Assembly (NCBI GenBank): GCA_951406725.2
Contig: OX597834.1
Location: 35,092,001 to 35,156,000 of the forward strand
Length of the DNA: 64,000 bases
Origin: Octopus vulgaris
Taxonomy: Eukaryota
Direction: 5' to 3'
Positions 44,988-64,000 of the stretch are shown here, one piece after another. The first letter of the stretch is position 1; every line of letters starts with the position of its first letter. Made by a program: the position numbers.

Positions 44988-47900
44988 TTACATAAATACA
45001 TATATACATATGTACGTGTATGTATGTATATATATATATATAATTGGCCACGTCTTTCGTGCTATTGTTTAACGCTCGGTTAGCCCTGATAGAGTAGAGC
45101 TATAATTAAGGGTATCCCACCACATTTTAGTGCGTCCACCCATTGACTTTTCTCTTTCTTTTTCAAGACAGTAAAATATTCTAGATTCAGATGCCTTGGG
45201 GGTTTTTCTCTTTCTTTTTAGCCGGTCGAACGACCACGACAGGCTCCTATCATCATTAGCTAGATAGACATCAAGCTAATAACTCATGCAACTGAGTCAT
45301 TATAAACTAAACACGACATTGGACCTATACTTTGCAGTAATTTTCCACATAATAAGCCCTAAACAATTATGTTTCGATACGAGGCTTCGTTGACTCATCG
45401 ATACTGAAATAATCTTAACTTTCCACTAAAAAAAGTAGTGTTGTCCTCTCATAGAATGAAAATGAAGGCATTTGCGAAGAGGGATAAATTAATAAGGCAG
45501 CGGAAATTTCCCAAGTGTATATTTGAAGATATCAGGAACTGAGCCAAACATCCTGAACATCAAAAAGCATGTATAATGAGGAGGTTTCCGTAAAATGTAG
45601 TTAATATATATGTTGAAATAAAAATGAATAAAATTATAACAGGCCTATACATATATTGGAATGAAAAACGAGGGGCGGGGGAACTTTCACAAACAACTAT
45701 ATAACAATTATTACAAGACAGTCCCAGCTTTATATATGTATAAATTTCACAATTAAAAAATATTAACAATAGTACTGAATATGATAGTTATCCTGGTTCT
45801 TTTAAACAGTAAATGGTATTCTCTCAGAAACCATCTACAAGTGGATATACAGGGAACTTTACAGAAAACCTATTTTAATTTTATTCCAAGGCAGGTTGAC
45901 CGAGGTTATTATTCAACTGAGCACATTGAAATTTAGATCAGGACGTAAACATTGAAGTAAAAACAACGGATTACTAATGTATACCCTTTCCAAAAGCACA
46001 ATATGTAGTTTGTATTTAGAACTCGTCATTTTTAGACTTTATAACTTATAGAAAGTGTTTATCTAAAATGATACAAAAAAATTATAAACAAATGCACCAG
46101 GAGTGGGTGTCGAAATTTATGTTAATAGAATGTTACAGTAAACTTTAAACAACGTTCTCGACCAACACACACACACGTAATTCTTTGGTTTTACATTTAC
46201 TCTTGGTAATTGAGAAATACATATTGATTTTCTATTAATGAATAAAGTTGGTGTTGATGCCTGGCCATCAAAGTATAAAAATATTCTAGTTAAAATGAAA
46301 GTAAAAGAGATAATTTTAAAACATCTTACAATGAAAGAAAGCACTTCGTTCTTCGGACGTTGAAAACCATTTGCCGTTTTGGGTTTAGGGTACGATTTTT
46401 AATGACCTGGGATTATCAAAGATGTATTAATTAGGCGAGGACACGAATGACATTGCAGTTAAGTCTGATATATTTATACATATATTGTAATGTATATTTC
46501 AGTGTAGGTGTGAGAATAATTGCCTATTTCTGGAGTTTAACAGAGGGAATAGGCACTCACATGCATTGTATATCATCAGGTTGTGTCGTAATTTCTCGAA
46601 TAATAAATAGTTAGATGTGACGGTCAAGGAGGACATGAATGACAATGGAAAATAAAAGTGTTCAGGTGAGACTGTTGACTGAGACAAGTTGGTACGATTA
46701 GGAAAAATCACACATTTACGGGCTTTTCCCCACTACACACGTAACAATAAAACAGAAAGGCCAGGATGACAGCATTGGTTTCCAAATATGAGGCACGGAT
46801 AAGGAGAACCAGATATTGACAAAAATTAATATGGTTATTGGACCTGACTGATGTAGGGGTAGCTAGCACTAATTTATCAGTTGTGATACAATAATTGGAG
46901 ATTGAAAGAAGAAAACAAGAGACATGTGAATGACATTGAGAAGTAAGAAAACAACAAAGTGACGCCAAAGAAAGTCTATACACAACAGATGATAAATATA
47001 TTGATTTATAAGTGAGATGGTTAATAATGCCTGCCGGACTTCACTGTATTGTAAATAGATATAGGTTTTAAGAGGGTTTACATATTAACAAAGACAACAC
47101 ATTGATGAGACTTATTGGTTGTTACACACTATTTTAAAATGATAAATTTCGTTTATCTTTGTGGAAACAAAACAAATCTTTGAGTTGGAAAAGTCGCTCG
47201 TAAATAATAAAGAGACAGAGAGAAAGAGAAAGGAAGAATAAACCGTGTGTCTGTCTGTGTGTGTGAATGTGTGTGCGTCAGAGAGAAAGAAAGAGAGAAA
47301 CATAGAAATAGTGTCTGTGTGTGCGTCGAACACGAGATGAGAAGCTGGGATGAACATCTCAATCCCTTTTTTTCATACGAAACAAGTCGATAAAATAGGT
47401 AAATGAATAGAAAGGTTGTCTGCTCAACAATCTTACCTACGGCTGACCGCTGTTATTTCCTCTTCTATTCGTAAAATCCCATCCTATGGGGTAATAACAT
47501 ATCCATAGTGAGTAGAACCCAGCAGTATATCTACTCATGCTACGCTTCGTTTAATTGTAAACTCGCTGCCTTGACAGGTGCTCATACAAAACCCGAAATG
47601 GTTGCTAAAAGATCGATAATTCATCATCACATCACACTTCTGCTAAATACTTGTTGCATGAGCTTTATTTGTTTATTTCTTGGTCTTTGTTGTTGGGTTT
47701 TTTTTTGTCTCTTGTTCAAGTGTTACCGATTACGAGCGAAATAGAAATCTTGTCAACTCATCAGATATATAATTGTGTTTTAAATATATAATCTTAATAA
47801 TAGACTTGCTTTGTTTTCACATGCGAAGAATAACTTTTAAAAGTTTATAAATCAAGTATTGTTTACATGTATATAAATAAACAATATTTCTTGCAACTTT

Positions 47901-61800: not shown

Positions 61801-64000
61801 TGCTTTATAAGTCAATCAGCAAGACCGGGGGTAATCGTAGCAGTTATATTAAGAAAGATATCTTAAGCTGGAAACAATCTCACTTTAAACTACTTAATTT
61901 TAGAATTTAATAGTTAACTAGAACCGTAAGATTGCCGTTTATTTAGGAGGAACAGTATGGATGTGAGACAATCGCACATCGACATTTTCTTTAATTTCAT
62001 TGCATATATACACATTATTTTATTTAGTCGAATATTAGTTTAATTCACTATTAAGTAATAATTAATCTTATCTAAAATATAAAGATTAATTAGTAAATTT
62101 AAAGGCGACTTTCATTTCACTGTCGCTTGATAACCAATTCATGGATTTCACTTTATTTAAAGCATCGTTTTCTTATGGTAATTAGGATTCTCTTTAGAAT
62201 TTTAATTTCTTAGTGAATCGATCGGTAGGATTCTTTTTTAAAAGTTTAATTTCTTTATTAGTGAATCGATCGTTGAAGAGTCGAGGCGCCCTGCGGGAAA
62301 TTGGCGGCAACCATGACCACGTGGTGTCGTCTATTGCATGTCTCCAGAAAACTACTACACGTGGCGGCTTTCTCATTTAGTATTACTGCAGCTTTTCTAT
62401 GATGACAACGATGACGAGTCTGAGGGCAATTTGCTGTCTTCGTGGTACAGTTTTTGTACTTTTGAAGTGCAGTTAACTTGCCATATCTGCTGCTTCTAGA
62501 GGCATTTGTCTGAGAAATAGCTGCTTTCAATACTTCATTCATACTATGCCCCGAGTAGTTTTTCTAACCTCTGTGGAACTTGATCTATATTTTACGTCAC
62601 GAATTGGCAGGTTTTTCGAGAAACAGGCCGCACTAAAAGAAAATCGGGGTAATTTTTAGTTAGGTATGCAATTAAGGAGTCATGCGAGCTCCATATAATA
62701 TATACTAATGGTAATTTTTCGCTAGGCGTCCTTATTGTCTTAAGGGTCGTGGTGAGAAATAGTAATTTTTCGTTAGGGATTCCATTTAAAGTCCCGCAGG
62801 TTCCCTCGTAACTGGTTTACAGTAAATCGTTCTGCATTTTCTCTTTAGTTGGGGTTGGCAGGAATGTATCTGGTGTTCAGCTAGCAGTAATTTATAGTTT
62901 TGATAATTATTAGTTTAAGACAAAATGCCTATTAGAAGTTATTTGTGTGGTTGAATTTTAATAGGGTCTGCGAAGGTGCTGTTTGCCCTGATGAATTCTT
63001 GGACTAGAGTCTCTGAAAAATTTTAATTTGAAGACAAACTGTCCACTGAGCAAATAATACCTTTCGTTATCTGTCGATCATGCCATATTTGTTCACATAG
63101 TGTATAAATTAGTGGTAGGCTTCGTGAGTCATACCGTAATTCGGTCTGTAATCGCAGCTTAGATTTTTTTTCGGCCAGTTTAATTTATAAGTTAGTCATT
63201 TTGATCGATTATCACGGGTTTTTTTCTATACGACCATTATTTTTTAACAGTAGGTTGTGATTTTTAGCAGAAGTGGGTTTCCGTTTTTTTTTTTTTTTTC
63301 CTCTGAAAATTTCCATGGACTGGGTTTTGGTTTCAACGGATTCACTTTTATTATAGTGTAGGATCGTTTTATTATGGCGCTGATTTTTTTTTTTTTTTTG
63401 TATTTGGTTATATGCAGAAATAGTTTACGACGAATACCTTTTCGTTCATGACTAGGGTCAGGTACTTCGTCTTTATGCCGGCATTTAGTTTTGTAGAAAT
63501 AGCAGCCAGCTCCTTAGGGGTAAGGAACTCTTAATGCAGTTTTATGATAGTAAGATAGCCGTATTGCTTCGTATTTAAGATTATTTAGATAAGACTTTGA
63601 CTTGGTATAGATTTCGTTTTAGTCATTTTTTTTGTATTTAACTATGGTGATACGTTATCTAGTCACAGTGTTTGAGATGTCCCAAAAGTGATGATTTCGT
63701 GGATCGACTGATTTCTGACGATTAATCCTTTTGCCCCTATCTGATTTGGGACATTTCATTAGCCGCTATTTAACATCCGTTTTTCGTCCTAGCATGGGTT
63801 GGGTAGTTTGACCAGACCTAGTAGGGGACTGGTCGCATCAGGCTCCAACGTGGTGGCCGCAGCAGTATATGTGCACATGCCAGGGTGAATCGAGGAGGCG
63901 CATTTTTCAATGAAATTCGGACTTTGGTACAGATGTAAGTAAAATGTATTAATTCTCGTATTAATAAATTGTATCATTGGATTGATACCTCAAAAAGTAG

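What the first reader, a model, noticed from the sequence alone, without database searches (positions are those of the whole stretch)
46858..64000. Tandemly duplicated non-coding snoRNA host gene pair carrying at least nine box C/D snoRNAs
Seen: two co-oriented units ~13.7 kb apart, each with TATA(-31), Inr, a ~35-nt exon, a GT donor and E-boxes, followed by C/D-box RNAs with terminal stems and no coding ORF. Known: this architecture is that of GAS5/UHG-type hosts. As I recall, in vertebrates U15 is hosted by RPS3, U80 by GAS5 and U52 by a separate host, so this co-hosting differs. Inference: an ORF-invisible, probably unannotated cephalopod UHG-like locus whose identifiable guides all address LSU rRNA.
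Basis: partly seen in the sequence, partly recalled or inferred. Interest (0 to 1): 0.9.

Follow-up and report, generated by a model that had tools for sequence, protein, structure and literature searches.

The report
Octopus snoRNA host gene pair
Two neighbouring copies of a probably non-coding octopus gene carry nine small RNAs of the kind that guide methylation of ribosomal RNA; this is a familiar type of locus in animals, seen here in a cephalopod.

Summary
A 1.3-kb block (46853-48147) recurs at 60607-61854 at about 96% identity. Each copy has TATATAAAG, a TCATTT initiator, a 35/32-nt exon and a GAG|GTATGT donor. Each is followed on the + strand by a conserved pair of CACGTG E-boxes and a U15-like RNA. 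Nine intact box C/D RNAs lie at 48.5-63.8 kb: two U15-like, one U52-like, four U80/snR60-like ("X") and two of no Rfam family ("Y"). There are also three decayed X copies. None reaches an Rfam gathering score. The guides of U15, U52 and the X D guide match family consensus and predict the published LSU sites. The X stem covaries. No coding evidence was found in 40 + strand and 10 - strand ORFs. T>A skew fits + strand transcription. Splicing, the non-coding status beyond 64000 and the rRNA targets could not be tested. Verdict: a UHG/GAS5-type multi-snoRNA host locus, tandemly duplicated. It is a new member of a known kind. The co-hosting difference from vertebrates is real but expected. Interest is modest.

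The parts
46853..48055 (+). Unit 1 upstream block, duplicated at 60607-61763
   Evidence: Self-BLAST 95.8-96.6% identity. No Pfam hit on its - strand ORFs.
48025..48033 (+). TATA-like motif TATATAAAG, unit 1
   Evidence: It lies 31 nt upstream of the A of the initiator. This is a motif match only.
48056..48090 (+). Predicted exon 1 of unit 1 (35 nt, no ATG). It starts in the TCATTT initiator and ends at the GAG|GTATGT donor.
   Evidence: The donor scores 8.54 against a 99th percentile of 8.49 for all GT in the window, using my own PWM with recalled frequencies. Inferred; no transcript data.
48436..48506 (+). Conserved intron-1 block (GGAAAYTGGCGGYAACC) plus two CACGTG E-boxes at 48459-48464 and 48501-48506
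   Evidence: Alignment A2 and the E-box list. This is the only intron stretch apart from U15 that aligns between the units.
48542..48663 (+). U15a: SNORD15-like C/D RNA. D guide intact, D' guide diverged.
   Evidence: Rfam RF00067, 47.5 bits, E 1.5e-7, gathering score 75. Boxes and stem. Guides.
49180..49257 (+). X1: U80/snR60-like C/D RNA
   Evidence: RF00309, 20.2 bits, E 5 in 2.5 kb. Own model R1, 115.9 bits. 10-bp stem.
49987..50078 (+). Y1: C/D-box RNA of no Rfam family. It has C, C' and D boxes, CUGU in the D' position and a 9-bp stem.
50781..50857 (+). X2: U80/snR60-like C/D RNA
51077..51173 (+). Decayed X copy with boxes lost
   Evidence: Model R1, 21 bits, E 0.0036 over the whole window.
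51565..51637 (+). X3: U80/snR60-like C/D RNA
51703..51800 (+). Decayed X copy. The C, D' and D boxes are mutated; the stem is partly kept.
   Evidence: Model R1, 29.8 bits, E 1e-5.
53033..53122 (+). Y2: second copy of Y. Boxes and stem are identical to Y1; both guide slots have changed.
53857..53883 (+). 5' fragment of an X2-like copy (shared 5' flank and 5' stem half only)
   Evidence: Alignment A5. Not found by model R1.
60607..61763 (+). Unit 2 upstream block, copy of 46853-48055, with TATATAAAG at 61733
61764..61795 (+). Predicted exon 1 of unit 2 (32 nt), donor G at 61796
62296..62363 (+). Unit 2 conserved intron-1 block plus E-boxes at 62318-62323 and 62358-62363
62394..62517 (+). U15b: SNORD15-like C/D RNA with both family guides intact
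   Evidence: RF00067, 53.8 bits, E 4.2e-9, gathering score 75. Guides.
62980..63056 (+). U52/snR78-like C/D RNA (C box CUGAUGA)
   Evidence: RF00276, 39.2 bits, E 1.7e-5, gathering score 45. Its D' guide plus D' box is identical to the consensus over 15 nt. 7-bp stem.
63677..63754 (+). X4: U80/snR60-like C/D RNA, the most diverged X copy
   Evidence: RF00309, 27.7 bits, gathering score 41, E 0.0057 in 151 nt. Compensatory stem changes against X1-X3.

Best explanation
This is a UHG/GAS5-type multi-snoRNA host locus of an octopus, present as two tandem paralogous units on the + strand.

How it most likely works. [quoted passage not shown] Paired CACGTG E-boxes in the first intron are the motif through which Myc:Max drives such hosts in flies and vertebrates. 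The primary transcript is spliced, and the box C/D RNAs are trimmed out of the excised introns as snoRNPs. These then guide 2'-O-methylation of LSU rRNA. By the box+5 rule:
- U15: an Am, and in U15b also a Gm 7 nt downstream.
- U52-like: a Um.
- X: a Gm, plus an unassigned Um.
The spliced exons are probably non-coding throw-away product.

History. The whole unit (promoter, exon 1, E-box block, U15, then X) was duplicated long ago; the U15 copies are 79% identical and the X copies 82%. The first 1.3 kb was later homogenised to about 96%, most simply by gene conversion. Unit 1 then amplified X locally into three intact and three decayed copies, and it duplicated Y.

Shown: the duplication, the box and stem anatomy, guide conservation, stem covariation, the lack of detectable coding potential in the window, and the strand skew.
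Inferred: the start site, splicing, non-coding status, Myc control, rRNA targets and gene conversion.
For: 1. Nine RNAs with full box sets and 4-10 bp terminal stems lie on one strand within 15.2 kb. The - strand hits were only two low-complexity GAT-repeat loci. No further snoRNA family hit at E<=1 was credible in 1-46000; the hits there are simple-repeat hairpins.
2. Family evidence from Rfam alignments. U15b keeps both consensus guides and U15a keeps the D guide. The U52-like D' guide plus box is identical to the consensus over 15 nt. The X D guide matches the snR60/Z15, ceN111 and Drosophila Me28S-Gm1083 consensus.
3. The box+5 rule on the window's own guides gives Am and Gm for U15b. The complements of its two guides overlap by 3 nt (CTC); taking them as one continuous target puts the two sites 7 nt apart. 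The rule gives Um for the U52-like RNA and Gm for X. These agree with Table 1 of PMC3511168: U15 Am3764/Am2279/Am2271 and Gm2278/Gm2286; U52/snR78 Um3904/Um2414; U80/snR60 Gm1612/Gm906.
4. X terminal stem: 97.5% of 40 cells are paired, against 25-45% when the partners are slid. 3 of 10 pairs change on both sides.
5. Between the units only the snoRNAs, the E-box block and the 5' 1.3 kb align; putative exon and intron sequence does not. Conserved payload with unconserved host sequence is the pattern described for non-coding hosts (abstract of PMC7719101, listing).
6. No coding evidence. 0 of 40 + strand ORFs of at least 40 aa reach a Pfam cut-off (40 of the 77 listed, including all 29 ORFs starting between 48146 and 54064 and all 7 in 61749-63257). 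The same holds for 0 of 10 - strand ORFs of at least 90 aa. The only sub-threshold hit is a Mos1 transposase HTH in a mariner remnant.
7. T>A skew on the + strand is -0.266 over 48056-49500, -0.120 over 48056-53200 and -0.179 over 61764-64000. The background for 500-nt windows in 1-45000 is +0.039 +/- 0.106.
8. Myc binds canonical E-boxes at Drosophila Uhg1, 2 and 5 and at most vertebrate SNHG promoters (passages of PMC4430873).
Against: - 0 of 9 RNAs reach an Rfam gathering score. X1-X3 score only 19-20.5 bits against RF00309.
- No transcript, cap, small-RNA or methylation data exist here.
- Strong acceptor-like sites 20-150 nt downstream occur for 6 of 9 RNAs. That is no more than in the local T-rich sequence: local rate 0.545, P 0.35; whole-window rate 0.31, P 0.03. 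One-snoRNA-per-intron is therefore not shown.
- The predicted start is not a 5'TOP/TCT start: the C at 48055 is followed by A.
- T-richness already begins about 500 nt upstream of the predicted start in unit 1, so the skew does not pin the start site.
- Unit 2 is cut at 64000, so downstream coding exons cannot be excluded.
- The promoter motifs are not independently conserved, because the copies are about 96% identical.
- U15a has lost one guide, Y2 differs from Y1 in both guides, and Y has no known target. Fewer than nine may be functional.
Confidence: 0.6

Rival explanations
1. The snoRNAs sit in 5'UTR or early introns of a protein-coding gene whose coding exons lie beyond 64000. Unit 1 may then be an upstream alternative promoter/first exon of that same gene.
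For: Unit 2 runs off the window after only 2.2 kb. Exon 1 has no ATG. In vertebrates U15 is hosted by a protein-coding gene, RPS3 (PMC11495440 table). A candidate exon read by eye between the acceptor-like site at 63792 and the donor-like site at 63935 ends with a short open ATG frame (read by eye).
Against: No coding signal in any scanned ORF of either unit. At least three snoRNA-bearing introns before any coding exon in unit 2, and at least six in unit 1, would be unusual for a coding host. The candidate exon carries several upstream ATGs followed by early stops (read by eye).
Confidence: 0.2
2. There is one long host gene, not two. The second promoter/exon-1 copy is a recent 1.3-kb intragenic duplication that landed upstream of an older U15 paralogue and may or may not fire.
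For: The 5' block is about 96% identical while the snoRNAs behind it are only 79-82% identical. That mismatch calls for either a recent event or gene conversion.
Against: Both units share the same order and similar spacing: exon 1, then a conserved block with paired E-boxes, then U15 452 and 598 nt after the donor. That shared layout implies an old duplication of the whole 5' unit. The 7.4 kb between Y2 and unit 2 shows no T>A skew (-0.007) and is full of SINE-like repeats.
Confidence: 0.12
3. The snoRNAs are made without splicing. Either they are processed from an unspliced polycistronic precursor by endonuclease cleavage, as in plants and yeast clusters, or they come from their own promoters.
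For: Acceptor sites are not enriched behind the snoRNAs relative to local sequence. The E-box pair lies only 31-78 nt upstream of each U15.
Against: The flanks of X1-X3 and of the other RNAs share no upstream motif. Similarity ends within a few nt of the stems for X and about 25 nt out for Y. A strong donor follows the predicted 35-nt first exon, and a strong acceptor lies 85 nt after U15a. [quoted passage not shown]
Confidence: 0.06
4. The elements are chance box matches or dead pseudogenes, and the 1.3-kb direct repeats are the ends of a mobile element.
For: All Rfam scores are below gathering. Three X copies are clearly decayed. Co-oriented direct repeats 13.7 kb apart resemble LTRs.
Against: Guides are identical to family consensus over 13-17 nt. 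The stem covaries. Y keeps boxes and stem perfectly while its flanks diverge. No gag/pol-like ORF lies between the repeats. Homologous snoRNAs follow both repeats, so the duplicated unit is larger than the repeat.
Confidence: 0.02

Closest known systems
Drosophila Uhg genes (Uhg1-Uhg5 and others), non-coding multi-snoRNA hosts
   Same: Many box C/D snoRNAs lie on one strand behind one Pol II promoter with no protein product. Uhg1 encodes 16 snoRNAs, and canonical E-boxes at the promoter are bound by Myc (passages of PMC4430873). Here there are 6 and at least 3 snoRNAs per unit, with paired CACGTG about 400-600 nt downstream of the predicted start.
   Different: The Uhg1 E-box lies 14 nt upstream of its start (reporter coordinates in PMC4430873); here the E-boxes are in intron 1 and come in pairs. 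Splicing is shown for Uhg and not here. The snoRNA content differs. This locus is a tandem pair with a homogenised 5' end.
Vertebrate GAS5 / UHG (SNHG1) / SNHG32 (C6orf48) hosts
   Same: Intron-encoded C/D snoRNAs in a host whose exons are poorly conserved. SNORD80 comes from a GAS5 intron (PMC13238223 passage). SNORD52 is hosted by C6orf48 (PMC11495440 table).
   Different: In vertebrates U15, U52 and U80 sit in three different hosts; here all three families share one host unit (unit 2). From recall, GAS5 and UHG start with a 5'TOP tract; the predicted start here does not.
RPS3 with intronic SNORD15A/B
   Same: The same snoRNA family (RF00067) is present in two paralogous copies in one locus (PMC11495440).
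   Different: RPS3 is protein-coding; no RPS3-like or any other Pfam signal occurs here. U15b here keeps two guides (Am and Gm +7), as plant AtU15 does. In yeast the two sites are split between snR13 and snR75 (Table 1 of PMC3511168).
snR60/Z15/U80 family (RF00309, clan CL00070), ceN111, Drosophila Me28S-Gm1083
   Same: The X D guide matches the consensus stretch ending in CCUAUCUGA and predicts a Gm, as for Gm1612/Gm906.
   Different: The X D' guide (core GUGGAUCGA, predicting a Um) does not match the family's Am guide. Scores are 19-28 bits against a gathering score of 41.

Membership tests
Box C/D snoRNA | C box RUGAUGA near the 5' end and D box CUGA near the 3' end | tested here: met
   8 of 9 have RUGAUGA and CUGA. 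The U52-like RNA has CUGAUGA and CUGA.
Box C/D snoRNA | Terminal stem bringing the C and D boxes together | tested here: met
   Stems of 4-10 bp. In X, 3 of 10 pairs show compensatory changes and 97.5% of cells are paired, against 25-45% for slid controls. There are only 4 sequences, so the statistics are weak.
Box C/D snoRNA | Internal D' and C' boxes | tested here: met
   U15a/b, X1-4 and the U52-like RNA have an internal CUGA. Y has CUGU in that position and a perfect C' box GUGAUGA. So 7 of 9 are canonical.
Box C/D snoRNA | Guide of at least 10 nt complementary to rRNA/snRNA, with the target at the 5th pair from D/D' | not testable with these tools
   No eukaryotic rRNA is held in any collection offered. 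The only evidence is indirect: guides equal to the Rfam consensus, and the predicted nucleotide type equal to published sites. Y and the X D' guide have no assigned target.
Box C/D snoRNA | Accumulates as a stable 60-130-nt RNA bound by fibrillarin/Nop56/Nop58/Snu13 | not testable with these tools
   No expression data.
SNORD15 (RF00067) | Score at or above Rfam gathering (75 bits) | tested here: not met
   53.8 and 47.5 bits, full-length matches, E 4.2e-9 and 1.5e-7 in 18 kb.
SNORD15 (RF00067) | Both family guides: the D' guide ending GAUGACGAGU and the D guide GAGGCAUUUGU | tested here: met
   U15b has both. U15a has only the D guide. This is met for one of the two copies.
SNORD52 (RF00276, clan CL00063) | Gathering score (45 bits) and the family D' guide | tested here: inconclusive
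   39.2 bits, below gathering, E 1.7e-5. The 15 nt of D' guide plus box are identical to the consensus, and the RNA predicts Um as for Um3904/Um2414.
snR60/Z15/U80 (RF00309) | Gathering score (41 bits) | tested here: not met
   27.7 bits (X4) and 19.1-20.5 bits (X1-3).
snR60/Z15/U80 (RF00309) | Two guides, for the Am (815/1521) and Gm (906/1612) sites | tested here: inconclusive
   The D guide matches and predicts Gm. The D' guide does not match the family's Am guide and predicts Um. X works like the Gm half of U80 but is not a full family member.
UHG/GAS5-type non-coding snoRNA host gene | Several snoRNAs on one strand downstream of one Pol II promoter | tested here: met
   6 intact RNAs follow 48056 and 3 follow 61764, all on the + strand. 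The promoter itself is a motif-level prediction.
UHG/GAS5-type non-coding snoRNA host gene | Each snoRNA in its own intron of a spliced, polyadenylated transcript | tested here: inconclusive
   A strong donor follows exon 1, and a strong acceptor lies 85 nt after U15a. Across all nine there is no enrichment over local background. No RNA data.
UHG/GAS5-type non-coding snoRNA host gene | No conserved protein-coding ORF | tested here: inconclusive
   0 of 40 + strand ORFs reach a Pfam cut-off. Exons shorter than 40 codons, lineage-specific proteins and anything beyond 64000 are unseen.
UHG/GAS5-type non-coding snoRNA host gene | 5'TOP (C followed by a pyrimidine tract) transcription start | tested here: not met
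   At the TATA-predicted start the sequence is TCATTTTTT: the C is followed by A, and transcription would begin at A. The true start is unknown. That UHG and GAS5 are TOP genes is recalled.
UHG/GAS5-type non-coding snoRNA host gene | Payload conserved, exons not | tested here: met
   In the paralogue comparison only the snoRNAs, the E-box block and the converted 5' end align. No orthologue comparison was possible.

The most novel reading that the evidence does not exclude
Y (49987-50078 and 53033-53122) is a cephalopod- or mollusc-specific box C/D family caught in the act of retargeting. The two copies keep every box and stem position identical, while all 9 differing columns fall in the two guide slots (P about 2e-4; 1.4e-3 if counted as 7 events). 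One change is a 3-nt register shift next to the D box. The copies would therefore direct methylation to different, possibly non-rRNA, targets. In parallel, the two host units are kept co-regulated by gene conversion of a 1.3-kb promoter block carrying Myc-type E-boxes.
Probability: 0.15. Interest if true: 0.5.

Novelty: new member of a known kind. Interest (0 to 1): 0.3.

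Why it matters
The locus offers a concrete, testable snoRNA host for a cephalopod. In the searched library, snoRNAs of this group are reported only as counts of Rfam-homologous loci: 118 C/D loci in the giant squid (PMC6962438 passage). Searches for 'snoRNA' with 'cephalopod' (29 papers, 15 listed) and with 'octopus' (58 papers, 12 listed) listed no title on host genes.

The finding extends three known themes to Lophotrochozoa:
- Non-coding multi-snoRNA hosts with promoter-proximal E-boxes.
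- Reshuffling of snoRNA-host pairings between phyla.
- Birth and death of snoRNA copies within a host: four live and three dead X copies, guide loss in U15a, and guide divergence in Y.

It also gives practical annotation guidance. All nine genes are missed at Rfam gathering thresholds, so threshold-based ncRNA annotation of cephalopod genomes undercounts snoRNAs.

Tried and rejected
- Rfam at gathering thresholds over the whole window gave nothing, so I used E-value mode on sub-regions.
I did not read stops through. Instead I listed stop-to-stop ORFs and scanned 40 of 77 + strand ORFs one by one. The 37 left out all lie at 54461-61807, in SINE-rich spacer and the duplicated upstream block. I also scanned 10 of the 12 - strand ORFs of at least 90 aa overlapping 46-64 kb; 46117-46398 and 60883-61191 were left out.
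- Acceptor-site test behind each snoRNA, using my own PWM with recalled frequencies: inconclusive. The first version of the control was flawed, because windows without any AG were scored -99. It was replaced.
- LTR-retrotransposon reading of the 1.3-kb direct repeats: rejected. There is no gag/pol ORF, and homologous snoRNAs follow both repeats.
- MITE reading of Y (9-bp inverted ends): rejected. The Y1/Y2 similarity runs about 25 nt beyond the stem on both sides, and the internal boxes are in C/D order.
- Further copies of U15, U52-like or Y elsewhere in the window: none.
- The miRNA-family hits at 51257-51347 and in 1-46 kb are generic hairpin or simple-repeat matches, all far below gathering.
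- Direct guide-rRNA pairing was not done, because no eukaryotic rRNA is available in the tools and sequence from memory is not admissible.
- Supplementary files of PMC4430873 (Uhg E-box figures) and PMC3511168 were not seen.
- Nothing in the window was taken for human.

Full report
**What is in the sequence**

The window has no N. A self-comparison shows that 46853-47921 matches 60607-61661 at 95.8% over 1073 columns, and that 47944-48147 matches 61652-61854 at 96.6% over 206 columns. Both are in the same orientation. Inside this 1.3-kb block both copies carry the same promoter-like features:
- TATATAAAG at 48025 / 61733.
- TCATTT at 48054 / 61762, which puts a predicted start at the A, 48056 / 61764, 13,708 nt apart.
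- GAG|GTATGT with the donor G at 48091 / 61796.

This defines first exons of 35 and 32 nt; they differ by three T and one substitution. Neither contains an ATG. Because the copies are about 96% identical, the motifs in copy 2 are not independent confirmation of those in copy 1.

**What follows the block**

About 56 nt into intron 1 the similarity between the units collapses. After that only short islands align:
- A block GGAAAYTGGCGGYAACC, followed by two CACGTG E-boxes 42 / 40 nt apart (48436-48506 and 62296-62363).
- A U15-like RNA (79% identity between copies).
- The X RNAs (82%).

CACGTG occurs 12 times in 64 kb, against 6.8 +/- 2.75 expected; 5 of 100 shuffles reach 12. The count alone is therefore unremarkable. 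What is notable is the conserved pairing and placement, 31-78 nt upstream of both U15 copies and 404-595 nt downstream of the predicted starts.

**The small RNAs**

A strict scan required RUGAUGA, then CUGA 45-150 nt on, then a terminal stem of at least 4 bp. It gave 9 + strand hits in the window. Eight lie in 48542-63754, and one is isolated at 17153-17254. The - strand gave only two low-complexity GAT-repeat loci. Rfam adds a U52-like RNA whose C box is CUGAUGA. The nine intact RNAs are:
- U15a 48542-48663 and U15b 62394-62517.
- U52-like 62980-63056.
- X1 49180-49257, X2 50781-50857, X3 51565-51637 and X4 63677-63754.
- Y1 49987-50078 and Y2 53033-53122.

A covariance model built from the four X copies was run without filters over both strands. 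It recovers the four at 101-116 bits. It also finds two decayed + strand copies, at 51703-51800 (29.8 bits, E 1e-5) and 51077-51173 (21 bits, E 0.0036). Their C, D' and D boxes are mutated. A third remnant at 53857-83 shares only the 5' flank and 5' stem half of X2. nhmmer found no further copies of U15, the U52-like RNA or Y. An E-value Rfam scan of 1-46000 found only simple-repeat hairpins and no credible snoRNA.

**How good is the family assignment?**

At gathering thresholds Rfam reports nothing. In E-value mode:
- SNORD15: 53.8 and 47.5 bits (gathering 75; E 4e-9 and 1.5e-7 in 18 kb).
- SNORD52: 39.2 bits (gathering 45; E 1.7e-5).
- snR60/Z15: 27.7 bits for X4 (gathering 41; E 0.68 in 18 kb, 0.0057 in 151 nt) and 19-20.5 bits for X1-X3.

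The alignments show that the score sits in the guides. U15b has both consensus guides and U15a only the D guide. The U52-like D' guide plus box equals the consensus over 15 nt. The X D guide matches the consensus of snR60/Z15, nematode ceN111 and Drosophila Me28S-Gm1083.

I applied the box+5 rule to the window's own guides:
- U15: Am from the D guide and Gm from the U15b D' guide. The complements of the two U15b guides overlap by 3 nt (CTC); joined into one target, the two sites lie 7 nt apart.
- U52-like: Um.
- X: Gm from the D guide.

These are exactly the nucleotide types and spacing listed in Table 1 of PMC3511168: U15 at LSU Am3764 / Am2279 / Am2271 plus Gm2278 / Gm2286, U52/snR78 at Um3904 / Um2414, and U80/snR60 at Gm1612 / Gm906. 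The X D' guide (core GUGGAUCGA, conserved in all four copies, predicting Um) does not match the Am guide of snR60/U80. X is therefore U80-like in one half only.

Y has no Rfam relative even in a 121-nt search; the best hit is 19.3 bits at E 0.22. Direct pairing to rRNA could not be tested, because no eukaryotic rRNA is available in the tools.

**Evidence that the RNAs are under selection**

The X terminal helix is paired in 97.5% of 40 cells, against 25-45% when the partners are slid. 3 of 10 pairs change on both sides between X1-3 and X4. With four sequences this is supportive rather than decisive.

In Y, all 9 differing columns between the copies fall in the two guide slots, which make up 38 of 92 nt. 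All box and stem positions are identical. The hypergeometric P is 1.9e-4, or 1.4e-3 if counted as 7 events. The snoRNP-forming parts are kept while the guides drift or retarget.

Minimum-free-energy folds close all tested RNAs with the terminal stem. The z-scores are unremarkable, as is usual for C/D RNAs.

**Host gene**

No coding evidence was found:
- 0 of 40 + strand stop-to-stop ORFs of at least 40 aa reach a Pfam cut-off. These were 40 of the 77 listed, including all those in 48.1-54.5 kb and in 61.7-63.3 kb.
- 0 of 10 - strand ORFs of at least 90 aa reach one.
- The only sub-threshold match is a Mos1 HTH in a mariner-like remnant at 51980-52790.

The + strand is T-rich downstream of both predicted starts. 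AT skew is -0.266 over 48056-49500, -0.120 to 53200 and -0.179 over 61764-64000. The 500-nt windows of 1-45000 average +0.039 +/- 0.106, and the inter-unit spacer 53200-60600 gives -0.007. From established knowledge of transcription-associated strand asymmetry in metazoan introns, this fits + strand transcription of roughly 48-53.5 kb and of 61.8 kb onward. The T-richness begins about 500 nt before the predicted start in unit 1, so it does not fix the start.

The exon 1 donor is in the top 1% of GT sites, and a top-1% acceptor lies 85 nt after U15a (my own matrix, recalled frequencies). Over all nine RNAs, acceptor-like sites 20-150 nt downstream occur in 6 of 9. That is no more frequent than in the surrounding T-rich sequence (0.545; P 0.35), although it exceeds the rate in the rest of the window (0.31; P 0.03). 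Splicing and the one-snoRNA-per-intron rule are therefore inferred, not shown.

**Origin**

One TE-like ORF (40180-40647, - strand) has a single database hit, an Octopus bimaculoides UniRef protein, at 89% identity over 23% of the query with E 1.9e-10. This supports an octopod origin but is thin.

**Most likely mechanism and history**

The locus looks like two tandem paralogues of a UHG/GAS5-type host. Pol II would transcribe each from a TATA/initiator promoter, and promoter-proximal E-boxes would provide the input. Myc binds canonical E-boxes at Drosophila Uhg1, 2 and 5 and at most vertebrate SNHG promoters (PMC4430873 passages). The pre-RNA would be spliced, the C/D snoRNPs released from the introns, and LSU rRNA methylated.

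The contrast between about 96% identity in the 5' 1.3 kb and 79-82% in the snoRNAs needs explaining, as does the shared order: exon 1, E-box block, then U15 452 and 598 nt after the donor. An old duplication of the whole unit followed by recent gene conversion of the 5' block explains both best. Unit 1 then amplified X (three live and three dead copies) and duplicated Y. U15a lost its D' guide.

**Rivals**

- A protein-coding host with exons beyond 64000 (0.2).
- One long gene with a recently duplicated internal promoter (0.12).
- An unspliced or independently transcribed cluster (0.06).
- Chance or a mobile-element artefact (0.02).

**Comparison and novelty**

SNORD15B in RPS3 and SNORD52 in C6orf48 appear in a table of PMC11495440. 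SNORD80 from GAS5 appears in a passage of PMC13238223. Co-hosting of all three families in one unit is therefore a real difference. It is also what the 'constrained drift' view of snoRNA mobility predicts (PMC3511168 abstract and conclusions).

The locus fails one recalled UHG/GAS5 hallmark, the 5'TOP start. It cannot be tested for splicing, NMD or polyadenylation.

In the searched library I found no description of a cephalopod snoRNA host gene (listings only). PMC6962438 reports only counts of Rfam-homologous loci.

I rate this a new member of a known kind with modest interest. Its most useful lesson is that all nine genes fall below Rfam gathering scores. Its most interesting loose end is the guide-specific divergence of the unassigned Y pair.

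Noticed in passing
window 51257-51347: A near-perfect 91-nt palindrome (long hairpin) lies inside unit 1, between a decayed X copy and X3. It matches more than 15 unrelated miRNA families on both strands, all far below gathering (best 47.5 bits against 74). It is probably a MITE-like inverted repeat rather than a miRNA.
   Followed up: partly
window 51980-52790 (+): A mariner/Mos1-like transposase remnant, broken into at least five frames. The only Pfam signal is HTH_48 at E 6e-4, below its cut-off. It sits inside the presumed unit 1 transcript.
   Followed up: partly
window 17153-17254 (+): An isolated C/D-like candidate far from the cluster, with GUGAUGA, CUGA and an 8-10 bp terminal stem. 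It has no Rfam hit at E<=1 and a fold z-score of -0.06. It may be chance.
   Followed up: partly
window 48436-48452 and 62296-62312: A 17-nt block GGAAAYTGGCGGYAACC is conserved just upstream of the first E-box in both units, in otherwise unalignable intron. It is a possible second regulatory site; the factor is unknown.
   Followed up: no
window 49491-49553 and 49623-49686: A local direct repeat of about 63 nt at 86% identity lies between X1 and Y1. Its nature is unknown.
   Followed up: no
window 54730-55097, 55739-56002, 56368-56488 and many sites in 1-46 kb: A SINE-like repeat is present in dozens of copies on both strands across the window. Together with (TA)n and (TG)n runs it fills most of the spacer between the two units.
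   Followed up: no
window 27328-27612, 37882-38184 (+), 40180-40647 (-): Three copies of a TE-derived ORF share a conserved C-terminal motif.
   Followed up: partly
window 47500-48000: T>A skew (-0.16) already starts about 500 nt upstream of the TATA-predicted start of unit 1. Either the real start is further upstream or the T-runs there are promoter-associated.
   Followed up: no
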